Shown: piece after piece, positions 18,301-63,633 of the stretch
Layout of the letters: every line of letters starts with the position of its first letter
How positions within the stretch are numbered: the first letter of the stretch is position 1
Assembly: GCA_012295275.1 (NCBI GenBank)
Contig: CM022667.1
Location: 7,130,001-7,194,000, forward strand
Direction: 5' to 3'
From: Chrysomallon squamiferum
Taxonomy: Eukaryota; Animalia; Mollusca
Length of the DNA: 64,000 nucleotides
Position numbers and translations under genes: made by a program
The notes under the pieces: model-generated
Told to the model about the DNA's origin: nothing
The model's database searches: none
The model's input: the letters and a program-made list of their open reading frames with translations, nothing else

Positions 18301-21300
18301 GAACATACCCTCTTTCTGAATTACAGGTTATTTATCTAGCAGTGGCTAGTAGAACATTAAATGATTATTTTAAAACAGTGACAATACTAAAAGATAAAGA
18401 AGAAAAAAATTTGCTGATTAGAAATCAAAACAACTTTAACAAAATATGAGAACCTTGTTTTCTTTTCTCTTTTTTTTCAGTTGCTGTTTGGAGAAGATGA
18501 TATTAGAAAGATTCTGAAGGTTGTTGACAAAAGTTCAAGTTCTGTTTCTCTTTTTTTCACTGAGGAATCATTTTTAACAAGTACACAGTGTGAATGCTCA
18601 TTTTTAAATAGTGAAAGTTCCAGTACTGAAATTGTTTCTGGTGAAAATACCTCTAACGAAGGTGTCTCAGGCTCTGGTCAAAATGTCTCTACACGAAGTT
18701 TATCTGTTTCAAGTTGTGCTTCATCTCTTAACACATTTCCCAAAAGAATTCAAACAGTAATTGATGATGATAATATAGATGAAGATGACAGTGATGACAC
18801 TGGTGTGGATGAGATTGTTTCTGTACCTAGCCTGACACAAATACAACTTCAGCAACAGAAAGAAAGAAAAGAAACAAAAGAAATGGCACATGAATTACTG
18901 ACATTGTGGGCAGGTGAGGAGATATTATATTCAATAGGAAAACGTTTTTAAACAACTTATCTGAAGCAGGAATATATATTATATATACTGATTGTAAAAG
19001 GTTGCTACATCCTTTCATTATGCTTTTGAAAAGACACATTGTGTGGTATGCAGAAAGAGATGTAGTCACGATTATACCATTTGAAACAAAACCTGTGAGC
19101 AGTTCTTTCCAGTGAGATACATCAATGCCATTGTATGGTATTCCTTTTCTACCAAGAAGCTTTCTGACAAATATCCAAGGACAAATTTTAGTGTTGATCT
19201 GTGGAGAAAAAACATTTTCATTTTTAGCAATTTGTATGACACTCTGAAATAAACTGTGGATATATGCACATTAATAAATTTGCTAGCCATTGTGTGCACA
19301 TATATCTATCTACTTATGTTACTAAAAGACAGCAATACTTTACAGTATTAACAGCAAGATCTAAACAATTACATAGTAATAACATATATTAATTTGCCAT
19401 TATTAAAATGTGATCAAACATTTCAGGTGGATGTGTGCCAGAAATTCCTGCAACACCGGATTCTTCATGCTGCTCTGAGGTTGCTTCCACAGTGGATGAC
19501 AGCATCTTTGACAGCACATCTTTGAGCACCATCTCCAAGTCATCACTTTTCAGTCTGGATGAAAGAATCCTCGGACATGTAGGGCTGCCTGCTCTAGAGA
19601 AGAAGTCACTGGGTAAAATGGTCCACTGCCAGAAACAGTTGCTGCTGGGTGGAATTGGAGATGATGTACCCCTGCCCAGAGCAAACCTGAGGATAATACG
19701 AGCACTGGCATCAGATAGCTTTGCTGGTTACCCTTTCAGGTATAAACACAGAAATTGTTATGTTAACACACAGATCTGAATTGTACATTCAGGTATAAAC
19801 ACAGAAATTGTTATTTTTGCACATGAATCTGAATCATCCATTCAGATATTAAGCATAGAAGGTACTATATTTACACACTGATCTGAATCATACATTCTGA
19901 TATTAAACAGATGTTACTATATTTACATGCTGATCTGAATCATACATTCTGATATTAAACAGAAGTTACTATATTTACACACTGATCTGAATCATACATT
20001 CTGATATTAAACATAGATGTTACCATATTTACACACTGATCTGAATCATACATTCTGATATTAAACATAGAAGTTACTGTATTTACACTGATCTGAATCA
20101 CACAATCAAGTATTAACACAGATAAAAGATATTGTTTTATAATTAAACTTATTTTATCAACATTTCTAACTTCTGTTTTCTTTATTTAACTTTTAACTTA
20201 ATTATGATTATTTTGTTTTACTTCTTAAATTGAAAAAGTAAAGAAAAGAGAAATATACATTTGGTTATGTTTATTACTTATAATAAATGTTTGATATTGC
20301 AGGGACTTTTTAAGTAAAAATGAACAGCGACAGTACTTGACGTATATTAATTTCTGGAACGATATTCAAAACTATCTTCGCATAGATCCACTAGCGAGGG
20401 ATGAAAATGGAAACTGTACAAGAAAGTTGGGAGCACAAAGAATAATGAACAAATATTTAATTTCATCTGCAATCACTCAGATTTTCTCAGAAAGAATGAA
20501 AAAGTCTTTGTTCACAATTCTGTCTGATGGAAAGGACAAACAACTGTTGTATGCTGCTCGTGATATTGTCACTATTGTAAGCTTGTTTGTAACATTTAAG
20601 TATATACATACATAATATACATAATTTGAATTAAAGTATTAAAGATATATGTAAATCTGGCAGTAAGACACTAAACCTCCCATTTTTCACATTTGTTACT
20701 TTGTATGTAGGTGCTGGGCAGACCATGGAGAGATTACACAGAAAAAGATAAACGAAAACTGATCAATTCTTGTGTAAGTTCAACAACATAATGTTTGATT
20801 AGCTTTTAAATGATTTTCACTTTCTCAGTCTGATATCCAAATTTTGTTAAAAGAAAAGAAGCTAGAGAAAAAACAAACATTTTATCTGTTTTGATAATAT
20901 CAAACAATAATTAGAATATATTTTTATAACTAAAATTGTTGTTTTATCATTATTATTATTATTATTATTATTATTATTATTATTATTATTATTATTATTA
21001 TTATTACCACTACTATTATTACTACTACCATTACTATGACTATTATTATTATCTGTCAGTTCAAGAAAGCATACCTGACATTTATGCGCAGACAGTTGCC
21101 CCCAACTCTGGTAACTCCAGAAATGACAAAAATATATTCTGTAGCAAAAGGCGAGTACTTTGACCAAGCTTATCGCAACATGTGGGACTGCATGGACAGT
21201 GGTACTTTGTGGTCAGAAAACTTGGACAAAAAGATTCTTTCAGAAGAACATTGTTGGAAATCACTGGAACTAACAATGTCTCTTGAAGGTTTGTCTTGTT

Positions 21301-61600: not shown

Positions 61601-63633
61601 GTTTAAAGCTAAGAACACTATTATTGAACTGTAATATATAAACTCTTCTCTCTAACATACTAACACTGTAATATATAAACTCTTCTCTCTAACATACTAA
61701 CACTGTAATATATAAACTCTTCTCTCTAACATACTAACACTGTAATATATAAACTCTTCTCTCTAACATACTAACACTGTAATATATAAACTCTTCTCTC
61801 TAACATACTAACACTGTAATATATAAACTCTTCTCTCTAACATACTAACACTGTAATATAAAAACTCTTCTCTCTAACATACTAACACTGTAATATAAAA
61901 ACTCTTCTCTCTAACATACTAACACTGTAATATAAAAACTCTTCTCTCTAACATACTAACACTGTAATATAAAAACTCTTCAAATACATTAACATTACAT
62001 ACTCTTCTCTCTAACATACTAACACTGTATTATGCAAACTATTCTCACTACTAACATTGATATACAAACTCTTCAAATACACTAACATTACATACTCTAC
62101 TATCTAACATACTAACATTATAAAATACAAACTGTCTGAAGATACTAACATATGTGTATTCCTCTGTAATATACTAACAGAGTTGAGGTTGTATGTGTAC
62201 ATGATAAGACTAATGTTAAAGCTTATTATTTCGTCAACACAGTCAAAAAGCTGTTGTTCACGATAAGAAGTAAAATGTCTACAGTTATTTGAATTATAAA
62301 AAATAGTTTGTAATTTTTCTCACTTACTTTGAAATAACTTTGGTACTTTCAGGCTGGTGTAAAACATAAACTGGTTGTTGAAGTGAATGGGACCAAGATT
62401 GACACAGACTGGAAGAATCAGGATGGGAAGATGACATTTTCAGTTTTGTGGATATCCTTTATAAATATGACAACATCTTAAACTACACAATTATTTCATT
62501 TTCAGTTTTGAGGATATACTTTATAAATATACAACATCTTAAACTACACAATTATTTCATTTTCAGTTTTGAGGATATACTTTATAAATATACAACATCT
62601 TAAACTACATAATTATTTCATTTTCAGTTTTGAGGATATACTTTATAAATATACAACATCTTAAACTACATAATTATTTCATTTTCAGTTTTGAGGATAT
62701 ACTTTATAAATACAACATCATCTTAAACTATATAATTATTTCATTTTCAGTTTTGTGATATCCTTTATAATAAAGCAGTAATGTACTAACTTCATTGTAA
62801 TGAAAAAGCCTGGTCTGTTTGAAAGTTGTTTTTGACAGTTCAGTCATGGTGATTTGTAAACAATGGAAATGACTGCACCCTGAATTAATACAATTGAGAT
62901 TTCATGTAAATATAGCACAGTGTGAAGATCATGAATCACAAACTTTGTTTACACTCCTTGACAAAGTGAACGTAGCTGATAATGTTGAACTTCCAGGAAA
63001 CACAGAGTGTAGAGTGACAGTGAGTCTTCGTGAGCTGGGTTGTGCTGGTGAGCTCGGTTGTGCTGGTGAGGTGGTGTTGAAGCAGGACAGTCAAGGTGAA
63101 GTGTTTGTTCATGCTGGGACTGGCCACAGCATGTTCAGGTAGACATTTGTTGAGAGATTGTCTAACAAAACATTTCAAATATGATGTAGTAATCTCCATT
63201 TCTGTGCTTAATCCTTTATTTAAAGAAATTGTGTTTTCAGTGAAAAATTAAGTGTTAAATATTTGTGTTTTCAGTAAAGAATTAAGTGTTAAATATTTGT
63301 GTTTTCAGTGAAGAATTAAGTGTTAAATATTTGTGTTTTCAATGAAGAATTAAGTGTTAAATATTTGTGTTTTCAGTTAAGAATTAAGTGTTAAATATTT
63401 GTGTTTTCAGTTAAGAATTCAGTGTTAAATATTTGTGTTTTCAGTGAAGAATTAAGTGTTAAATATTTGTGTTTTCAGTGAAGAATTAAGTGTTAACTAT
63501 TTGTGTTTTCAGTTAAGAATTAAGTGTTAAATATTTGTTTTCAGTGAAGAATTAAGTATTGCAAAGTCTGAAGTTCTCCAGGCAGAGCTGACCTCAATTC
63601 AGGAACTTTACAAGTTAGAACCAGAAAACAAAT
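58609..63633 (+). CDS. RABGGTA: Rab geranylgeranyltransferase alpha subunit, 5' part (continues beyond the window)
   Basis: Exons: 58609-58611 (ATG only, inferred), 58954-59064 ([12 protein letters not shown]), 59663-59787 ([11 protein letters not shown]), 60085-60272 ([11 protein letters not shown]), 60495-60692 (HCWDYRRFV...[12 protein letters not shown]), 61180-61263 ([19 protein letters not shown]), 61469-61551, 62353-62451, 62972-63138, 63545-63633 (LEPENKW). Confidence 0.96.
59477..59696 (+). repeat. 72-bp triplication spanning a RABGGTA 3' splice site
   Basis: tttcag|aaatcaaggggtgaa with exon starts at 59519, 59591 and 59663. Confidence 0.93.
61628..62150. repeat. 37-bp intronic minisatellite (aacactgtaatatataaactcttctctctaacatact)
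   Basis: About 10 near-perfect copies plus a degenerate tail. Confidence 0.95.
62435..62772 (+). repeat. 61-bp repeat amplifying the U12 donor junction
   Basis: Units start at 62435, 62497, 62558, 62619, 62680 and 62742. Confidence 0.93.
62452..62971 (+). other. U12-type (minor spliceosome) AT-AC intron in RABGGTA
   Basis: Donor ATATCCTTT 62452-62460; branch site TCCTTGAC 62955-62962; AC 62970-62971; in-frame junction ...[13 protein letters not shown]. Confidence 0.92.
63228..63557 (+). repeat. 34-bp repeat amplifying a RABGGTA acceptor plus the first 13 nt of the exon
   Basis: gtgttttcag|tgaagaattaagt x10; acceptor positions at 63240, 63274, 63308, (63342 mutated to AA), 63376, 63410, 63444, 63478, 63512 and 63544. 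Confidence 0.95.

What the first reader, a model, noticed from the sequence alone, without database searches (positions are those of the whole stretch)
19735..63557. Intronic minisatellites repeatedly built from splice sites, giving arrays of decoy donors and acceptors
Seen: five unrelated repeats include the exon-intron junction or terminal AG itself (RGSL1-like donor 19740 and acceptor 26091; RABGGTA acceptors 59663 and 63545 and U12 donor 62452). Several more abut junctions (48020-48392, 51238-51370, 56718-56982, 59978-60081). In each junction-containing case, the copy that gives the homologous protein is the one nearest the exon, and many intronic copies carry point changes in the splice signal or lead to stops. 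Inference: a genome-wide slippage or duplication process that grows introns from their ends, filtered by selection on splicing, and possibly supplying poison or extended isoforms. It could also reflect a generally high tandem-duplication rate with survival bias.
Basis: partly seen in the sequence, partly recalled or inferred. Interest (0 to 1): 0.8.

Follow-up and report, generated by a model that had tools for sequence, protein, structure and literature searches.

The report
Splice-junction "mirage" repeats in a snail
In a snail genome, six short tandem repeats have copied a splice junction into the neighbouring intron; at the four junctions tested, assembled RNA joins only at the copy next to the exon, so these are likely tolerated by-products of frequent local duplication, of a kind already known from lancelet and human genes.

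Summary
All five named arrays contain a splice junction at the stated coordinates, and the 53-mer at 59969-60086 is a sixth. The DNA is from a gastropod closest to Gigantopelta aegis. Spliced contigs of three runs (two studies) join all four RABGGTA cases, including the AT-AC intron, at the exon-proximal copy only. An unspliced DNA-type run holds those arrays. The two RGS-like cases rest on homology alone. This is the "mirage" minisatellite known from amphioxus and from human F7, CBS, LMNB2 and PDGF; this scan noted it before in other genomes and elsewhere in this one. A junction-targeted process is not shown. With arrays collapsed, introns are short (median 250 nt), so 3.8-5.5 of 21 arrays would hold a junction by chance against 6 seen (P 0.17-0.49). 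Weak hints of bias remain: 13 of 21 arrays lie at or within 20 nt of an intron end (P 0.0015-0.046), and 5 further decayed junction copies were found. No poison or extended isoform was seen; 18 of 19 intact decoys would give stops. Contigs drop rare forms.

The parts
19735..20123 (+). 52-bp array, about 7 copies, whose first unit holds the last 5 exon bases and the GT donor (19740) of an RGS-domain gene. Copy 2 (19793) has the same CAG|GTATAA; five later copies read AT; the last partial copy (20110) has GT.
   Evidence: mollusc homologues run on without extra residues across 19739|20303; not tested in RNA
24927..26091 (+). 27-bp array, about 41 copies, ending exactly on the terminal AG of the intron and holding no exon bases. 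Only the 5 decoys nearest the exon keep AG in register.
   Evidence: homologues continuous across 24692|26092; not tested in RNA
59476..59695 (+). 72-bp array, 3 copies, holding the RABGGTA acceptor plus 33 exon bases. All three AGs are intact; use of 59591 would add 24 residues in frame.
   Evidence: RNA joint 59064|59663 in X6, X7, X9; one DNA contig of X1 (59505-59675) spans the three copies
59944..60102 (+). 53-bp decayed array with the RABGGTA acceptor at 60085 (TRF core 59969-60086). The decoy at 59979 keeps AG; the decoy at 60032 has lost it.
   Evidence: RNA joint 59787|60085 in three runs
62435..62770 (+). 61-bp array, 5.5 copies, holding 17 exon bases and the U12-type AT-AC donor ATATCCTTT at 62452. 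Four inner copies read ATATACTTT; the last partial copy (62758) is intact.
   Evidence: AT..AC joint 62451|62972 in three runs
62955..62971 (+). U12-type branch-point-like TCCTTGAC and terminal AC of the same intron
   Evidence: sequence; consensus recalled; joint
63229..63557 (+). 34-bp array, 10 acceptor copies, each with 13 exon bases. 8 of 9 decoys keep AG; the used copy (63545) is 2 nt shorter in its pyrimidine tract than all nine decoys.
   Evidence: RNA joint 63138|63545 in three runs; X1 contig 63509-63985 matches without difference
48024..48392 (+). 27-bp array ending 13 nt before a KARS acceptor. It does not contain the true AG but carries 14 upstream AGs, all leading to stops.
   Evidence: RNA joint 47799|48406 in X6, X7, X8
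51238..51367 (+). 34-bp array starting 5 nt into a KARS intron; no junction inside
56717..56982 (-). 20-bp array starting 3 nt into an intron of the OTUD6B-like gene; no junction inside
   Evidence: hand-made gene model
49175..49257 (+). Decayed two-copy duplication of the KARS acceptor at 49246 (copy about 45 nt upstream, AG intact)
   Evidence: true joint 48966|49246 in RNA
50265..50332 (+). Decayed two-copy duplication of the KARS acceptor at 50321 (copy about 40 nt upstream)
   Evidence: true joint in RNA
50766..50812 (+). Decayed copy of the KARS donor at 50778, 32 nt into the intron, GT intact
   Evidence: true joint in RNA
30326..30375 (+). Decayed copy of the RGS-like donor at 30338, next to the start of the 38-bp array 30370-30488
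58609..63633 (+). Host gene RABGGTA (Rab geranylgeranyltransferase alpha), 10 coding exons in the window; 4 of its 9 introns carry junction arrays
16118..31023 (+). Host gene: large multi-RGS-domain protein, 22 modelled exons in one open frame

Best explanation
Six intronic tandem repeats in this snail include a splice junction, the four tested in RNA are spliced at the exon-proximal copy, and they are likely neutral 'mirage' minisatellites left by a high rate of short local duplication in a genome with short introns. Inferred steps: (1) a 20-70-bp stretch is duplicated more or less anywhere in the gene; (2) because an intron without its array is only about 250 nt long, roughly a fifth to a quarter of such events catch a GT or AG; (3) slippage or unequal exchange amplifies and homogenises the inner copies, so one signal-breaking change can spread through an array while the end copies stay apart; (4) the event survives if the spliceosome still takes the copy that leaves a normal exon, probably through exon definition, and rare use of a decoy would mostly give a premature stop and decay. 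In exons only in-frame units survive.
For: RNA contigs of X6, X7, X9 join 59064|59663, 59787|60085, 62451|62972 (AT..AC) and 63138|63545, and no other joint is listed. X6, X7, X8 skip the 14 AGs of the KARS 27-mer. Arrays take up 8,662 of 28,947 intron bases in 61 introns, and the collapsed median is 250 nt; 6 of 21 arrays contain a junction against 3.8-5.5 expected. Both exonic arrays have units divisible by three, against 5 of 21 intronic ones. The RABGGTA exon with the 18-mer is exactly 6 residues longer than the matching stretch in G. aegis (56 vs 50). Inner copies share changes that the end copies lack (61-mer, 52-mer, 27-mer), as reported for amphioxus mirages (PMC3087553 passages). Human F7 uses only the first of 5-9 identical donors (PMC1557585 abstract, introduction, discussion).
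Against: Arrays hug intron ends more than a uniform model predicts: 13 of 21 at or within 20 nt, P 0.0015 pooled and 0.046 within host intron. For arrays scoring 300 or more the pooled test for containing a junction gives P 0.044 (5 of 11). Five further junction windows have a decayed local copy against 0.62 expected by swapping (P 0.0004); against the interior duplication rate this is 5 vs 2.8 (P 0.15), and 11 vs 6.6-8.3 overall (P 0.07-0.22). The neutral expectation ignores purging of harmful junction duplications, so parity may hide a mutational bias. Four of the six arrays lie in one gene. Contigs drop rare isoforms, and the RGS-like cases have no RNA test. In human CBS and 6-16 the nearest pseudo-donors are used too.
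Confidence: 0.7

Rival explanations
1. Duplications arise preferentially at exon-intron borders (for example through breaks, stalling or template switching at the compositional or chromatin step between exon and intron), so introns really do grow from their ends.
For: 13 of 21 arrays at or within 20 nt of an intron end; 11 of 122 junction windows have a local copy; the 27-mer ends exactly on the AG; similar arrays noted elsewhere in this genome (e1-10689075, unchecked).
Against: The excess for containing a junction is at most about twofold and not significant in 8 of the 9 settings tried or overall. The three longest or most regular non-junction arrays in these genes (21634-24024, 52160-53360, 61628-62151) lie 76-155 nt from the nearest 5' end. 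Deletion of unique intron DNA next to an array would also bring arrays to the ends (inference).
Confidence: 0.2
2. The decoy copies are kept because they supply regulated poison or extended isoforms.
For: 19 decoys keep the core signal, and one (59591) would add 24 residues in frame. The last U12 copy (62758) is a perfect donor 214 nt from the intron end. Human CBS and 6-16 use nearby pseudo-donors.
Against: No joint to any decoy in three runs for RABGGTA or three for KARS, although the contigs did keep minor unspliced forms (KARS 50455-50637 at depth 22.5 beside 60 spliced in X7; intron pieces at depth 2-4). The copies are young and homogeneous. G. aegis and two other homologues have no extra residues at these junctions.
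Confidence: 0.07
3. The arrays are assembly artefacts.
For: The window has at least one base error (a 1-nt insertion at 48901-48904 missing in 4 of 4 runs), so it is not error-free. One of the DNA holders may be its source.
Against: Five runs from three studies hold 0.90-0.95 of the words of 58500-64000. An X1 contig spans the three 72-mer acceptors without difference, X1 contigs reach into the 61-mer and 34-mer arrays, and X1 depth rises over most arrays. X5 has contigs inside the KARS 27-mer. Copies within arrays are diverged.
Confidence: 0.03

Closest known systems
Amphioxus 'mirage' minisatellites (Adh3, globins BflGb6 and BflGb9, troponin C, PGBD5); PMC3087553 and PMC3902484, passages read
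   Same: Tandem units spanning a donor or an acceptor; unit range 10-72 bp in Adh3; many but not all copies keep GT/AG; normal splicing; inner copies homogenised, end copies excluded.
   Different: Here a gastropod; one case is a U12 AT-AC donor; four cases in one gene. Copy-number polymorphism, shown in amphioxus, is only hinted at here.
Human junction-spanning VNTRs: F7 IVS7 (37 bp x 5-9), CBS IVS13, interferon-inducible 6-16, LMNB2, PDGF intron 4; PMC1557585 abstract, introduction, discussion
   Same: First unit spans the exon-intron border; pseudo-sites follow; the exon-proximal site is used (F7, LMNB2, PDGF).
   Different: Those are all donors, explained by 5'-to-3' scanning. Four cases here are acceptors where the last of up to 9 intact AGs is used, which simple first-AG scanning would not give. 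In CBS and 6-16 nearby pseudo-sites are also used, which was not seen here.
Intron gain by tandem genomic duplication (Rogers model, as cited in PMC3087553)
   Same: Same raw material: duplications that include splice signals.
   Different: No new intron or exon has formed here; the joints match the exon structure implied by homologues.
Human RABGGTA U12-type intron between exons 9 and 10 (PMC10853781 passages)
   Same: The gene has a minor intron in both species.
   Different: Human is GT-AG, the snail AT-AC with a duplicated donor. That the two lie at the same position is likely but was not tested by alignment.

Membership tests
Mirage minisatellite | Head-to-tail units that include an exon-intron boundary | tested here: met
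   Five arrays hold exon and intron bases; the RGS-like 27-mer holds the terminal AG only
Mirage minisatellite | Many but not all copies keep the splice signal | tested here: met
   19 of 64 decoys intact
Mirage minisatellite | Normal splicing at the authentic copy | tested here: met
   4 of 4 RABGGTA cases in three runs; the 2 RGS-like cases have homology only
Mirage minisatellite | Concerted evolution of inner copies, end copies excluded | tested here: met
   Unit alignments of the 61-mer, 52-mer and 27-mer; judged by eye, no tree
Mirage minisatellite | Length instability between alleles | tested here: inconclusive
   Short-read contigs cannot count copies. Differences appear only in non-junction arrays: X1 at 62122>62010; X5 and X6 insertions at 48150 and 51315
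U12-type AT-AC intron | ATATCCTT donor, TCCTT-AC-type branch site, terminal AC, spliced at these ends | tested here: met
   Sequence and AT..AC joint in three runs; consensus recalled
Poison or alternative splice-site cassette | Decoy site used in RNA | tested here: inconclusive
   No decoy joint in contigs; contigs drop rare forms and no raw reads were offered
Junction-targeted duplication process | Enrichment of founding units at junctions over a collapsed-intron null | tested here: inconclusive
   6 of 21 vs 3.8-5.5; 11 of 122 vs 6.6-8.3; proximity test P 0.0015-0.046; one window only, no genome held

The most novel reading that the evidence does not exclude
This snail has a mutational process biased to exon-intron borders: about 9% of its splice junctions (11 of 122 here) sit in a local copy of themselves, its introns grow mostly by such end-anchored arrays, and the genome is a natural library of thousands of competing donors and acceptors (U2 and U12) in which the last of up to nine intact AGs wins.
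Probability: 0.2. Interest if true: 0.55.

Novelty: new member of a known kind. Interest (0 to 1): 0.24.

Why it matters
As it stands it is a dense, RNA-checked example of a known repeat type in a mollusc. Its use would be as test material. Acceptor arrays in which eight intact upstream AGs are passed over speak to exon definition against first-AG scanning. The duplicated AT-AC donor with one intact downstream copy is a natural competition test for the minor spliceosome. If a genome-wide count showed real enrichment, it would point to a junction-biased mutational process and bear on how introns lengthen and slide.

Tried and rejected
No whole genome is held, so the genome-wide test could not be run. 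A homologue search with RGS-like exon 19429-19737 found nothing (0 of 571 candidates); exon 20304-20576 found 13 proteins. The first exon models had off-by-one errors and were corrected. The 27-mer translations used the wrong phase and were redone. The ungapped junction scan with array-free controls (4 of 122 vs 3.0% at up to 4 mismatches) is not a fair enrichment test, because the controls exclude arrays and include microsatellites; it was replaced by the swap test. Selection for signal-breaking changes could not be separated from chance: about one change per array. Two short non-canonical joints in X5 (sides 21-23 nt) were set aside as probable repeats. Absence of RNA cover over array interiors is not used as evidence. 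Both read-laying runs went to RABGGTA and KARS, so the RGS-like gene has no RNA test. Paper searches for a genome-wide treatment or a U12 or mollusc case returned nothing relevant (listings only); the library lacks most subscription papers.
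Full report
Source and genes. The single-exon BTB protein at 11366-12763 is 68% identical to Gigantopelta aegis and 50% to Haliotis, and a RABGGTA exon is 88% identical to G. aegis. The window is therefore from a gastropod near G. 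aegis; the species was not determined. No whole genome is held. I modelled five genes with 61 introns (60 GT-AG, 1 AT-AC): RABGGTA, a large RGS-domain gene (Pfam RGS; mollusc homologues; orthology to RGSL1 not tested), and three genes whose names (KARS1, OTUD6B, E2F4/5) I recall from their translations and did not test by a call. 19 of the 61 introns are confirmed by RNA joints (9, 10). The others rest on homology, splice signals and an open frame.

Observation. All named arrays are present. Decoys with an intact core signal: 2 of 7, 5 of 39, 2 of 2, 1 of 2, 1 of 5 and 8 of 9, in all 19 of 64. Of the 19, 18 would give a stop; only 59591 keeps the frame (+24 residues). The broken signals trace to about one change per array that was then amplified: GT to AT in the 52-mer, AG to AA in the 27-mer, C to A at +5 of the U12 donor. 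In the 61-mer the first and last copies keep ATATCCTTT and the four inner ones share the change. In the 27-mer only the five decoys nearest the exon keep AG.

Which copy is used. Homology cannot answer this, since any junction duplication leaves the rest of the exon on the proximal copy. RNA can. Of 11 runs listed, I laid X6, X7, X9 and X1 on 58500-64000. X6 and X9 are RNA runs of one study; X7 is from a second study, has no library record, and behaves as RNA. All three join 59064|59663, 59787|60085, 62451|62972 (AT..AC) and 63138|63545. No joint to a decoy is listed. On 46700-52150, X6, X7 and X8 join 47799|48406 and so pass the 14 AGs of the KARS 27-mer region. These are contigs, which drop rare forms, and the piece tables were cut (59 and 141 rows unseen). 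They did keep an intron-retaining KARS piece at depth 22.5 and unspliced pieces at depth 2-4. For the two RGS-like arrays, mollusc homologues run across 19739|20303 and 24692|26092 without extra residues, but RNA was not tested.

Are the arrays real. Five runs of three studies hold 0.90-0.95 of the words of the RABGGTA stretch. X1 has one contig over all three 72-mer acceptors with no difference, contigs that reach into the 61-mer and 34-mer arrays, and raised depth over most arrays. X5 has contigs inside the KARS 27-mer. One holder may be the window's source. The window does carry an error: one extra base at 48901-48904 in a KARS exon is missing in 4 of 4 runs. Single-copy variants should therefore be taken with care.

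Is it more than chance. Of 30 merged arrays (period 15 or more, not low-complexity, score 50 or more), 21 touch a modelled intron and 9 do not and were left out. The 21 cover 8,662 of 28,947 intron bases. Collapsing each to one unit gives a median intron of 250 nt. Dropping a founding unit at random then catches a GT or AG 3.84 times (all introns pooled) or 5.53 times (own intron), against 6 seen: P 0.17 and 0.49. Across three score cut-offs and three nulls P ran from 0.044 to 0.49, with one of nine below 0.05. Counting arrays within 20 nt as well gives 13 of 21 against 6.1-8.9 (P 0.0015-0.046); that cut-off was chosen after seeing the data. A gapped search for decayed copies found 11 of 122 junction windows with a local copy at score 12 or more: the six known and five more (three in KARS, two in the RGS-like gene, one of them weak), against 0.62 expected for the 116 others by swapping windows between introns (P 0.0004). 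Intron interiors outside arrays also show excess local copies (3.3% vs 1.4% swapped). Against that background the five are not significant (2.8 expected, P 0.15), nor are the eleven (6.6-8.3 expected, P 0.07-0.22). So local duplication is common everywhere here, and a border bias of up to about twofold is neither shown nor excluded.

Survival filter. Two arrays lie in coding exons and both have in-frame units: 21 nt x 14.6 in the RGS-like gene and 18 nt x 2.7 in RABGGTA. The RABGGTA exon is 6 residues longer than the G. aegis stretch and is covered by RNA contigs. Only 5 of 21 intronic units are divisible by three. This is what a position-blind duplication process filtered by selection would leave.

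Mechanism. Shown: the anatomy, the presence of the RABGGTA and KARS arrays in other runs, proximal-copy splicing at four junctions, and stops behind 18 of 19 intact decoys. Inferred: origin by slippage or unequal exchange, homogenisation of inner copies, choice of the proximal copy by exon definition, and decay of rare leaks. For donors, 5'-to-3' scanning as shown for F7 would suffice. For acceptors it would not, because the last of nine intact AGs is used in the 34-mer. There the used copy also has a tract 2 nt shorter than every decoy (matched by X1), which may or may not matter.

What is known. Tandem repeats spanning exon-intron borders are called 'mirages' in amphioxus Adh3, globins, troponin C and PGBD5, where they do not disturb splicing (PMC3087553 and PMC3902484, passages). 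Human F7, CBS, 6-16, LMNB2 and PDGF have junction-spanning minisatellites (PMC1557585; abstract, introduction, discussion). Human RABGGTA has a U12-type intron (PMC10853781, passages). My searches found no paper on a mollusc case, a U12 case or a genome-wide enrichment test (listings only). The scan's own unchecked notes list such arrays in at least eight other findings, once elsewhere in this genome, and twice at U12 donors. I had the mirage reading before opening them.

Verdict. A real, RNA-checked cluster of mirage minisatellites: a new member of a known kind, most likely neutral. The claim of a special end-growing process needs the genome-wide test. Interest 0.24.

Noticed in passing
window 42372-42858 and 44250-44727: The KARS cytosolic-type first exon with its upstream region and GTAAGT donor is duplicated 1.9 kb apart (88% over 467 aligned bases); both copies have an ATG in frame. 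The X6 contig joins the downstream copy to 47655; X7 and X8 contigs end exactly at 47655, which hints at more than one first exon. A likely mitochondrial-leader first exon lies near 46165-46291.
   Followed up: partly
window 48901-48904: One extra base in a KARS exon shifts the frame in the window but is absent from 4 of 4 runs: an assembly error.
   Followed up: yes
window 63030-63079: An 18-nt in-frame duplication in a RABGGTA exon (ELGCAG twice) makes the exon 6 residues longer than in G. aegis.
   Followed up: yes
window 28018-28324: A 21-nt x 14.6 coding repeat (KDKDSVP-like) inside a modelled exon of the RGS-like gene.
   Followed up: no
window 27841-27849: A predicted 9-nt micro-exon of the RGS-like gene keeps the frame; not tested in RNA.
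   Followed up: no
window 50484-50609: This 126-nt KARS intron, which has no array, is retained in an X7 contig at depth 22.5 beside 60 spliced.
   Followed up: no
window 62683-62883: An unspliced X7 contig (depth 4.5) inside the U12 intron runs through the intact downstream donor at 62758 without a joint.
   Followed up: partly
window 35173-41957, minus strand: A gene with a 1,167-codon Ser/Thr-rich exon, an HMG-box exon (Pfam PF00505) and a 321-codon exon; not identified, and left out of the intron count. A 25-bp array (40707-41236) lies in one of its likely introns.
   Followed up: no
window 11366-12763 and 58609-63633: The best G. aegis hits for the BTB gene and for RABGGTA both lie on a contig of 59,883,994 bases, which suggests kept synteny.
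   Followed up: no
window 62010-62122: X1 has a different arrangement at the decayed end of the 37-bp array, a hint of array polymorphism.
   Followed up: no
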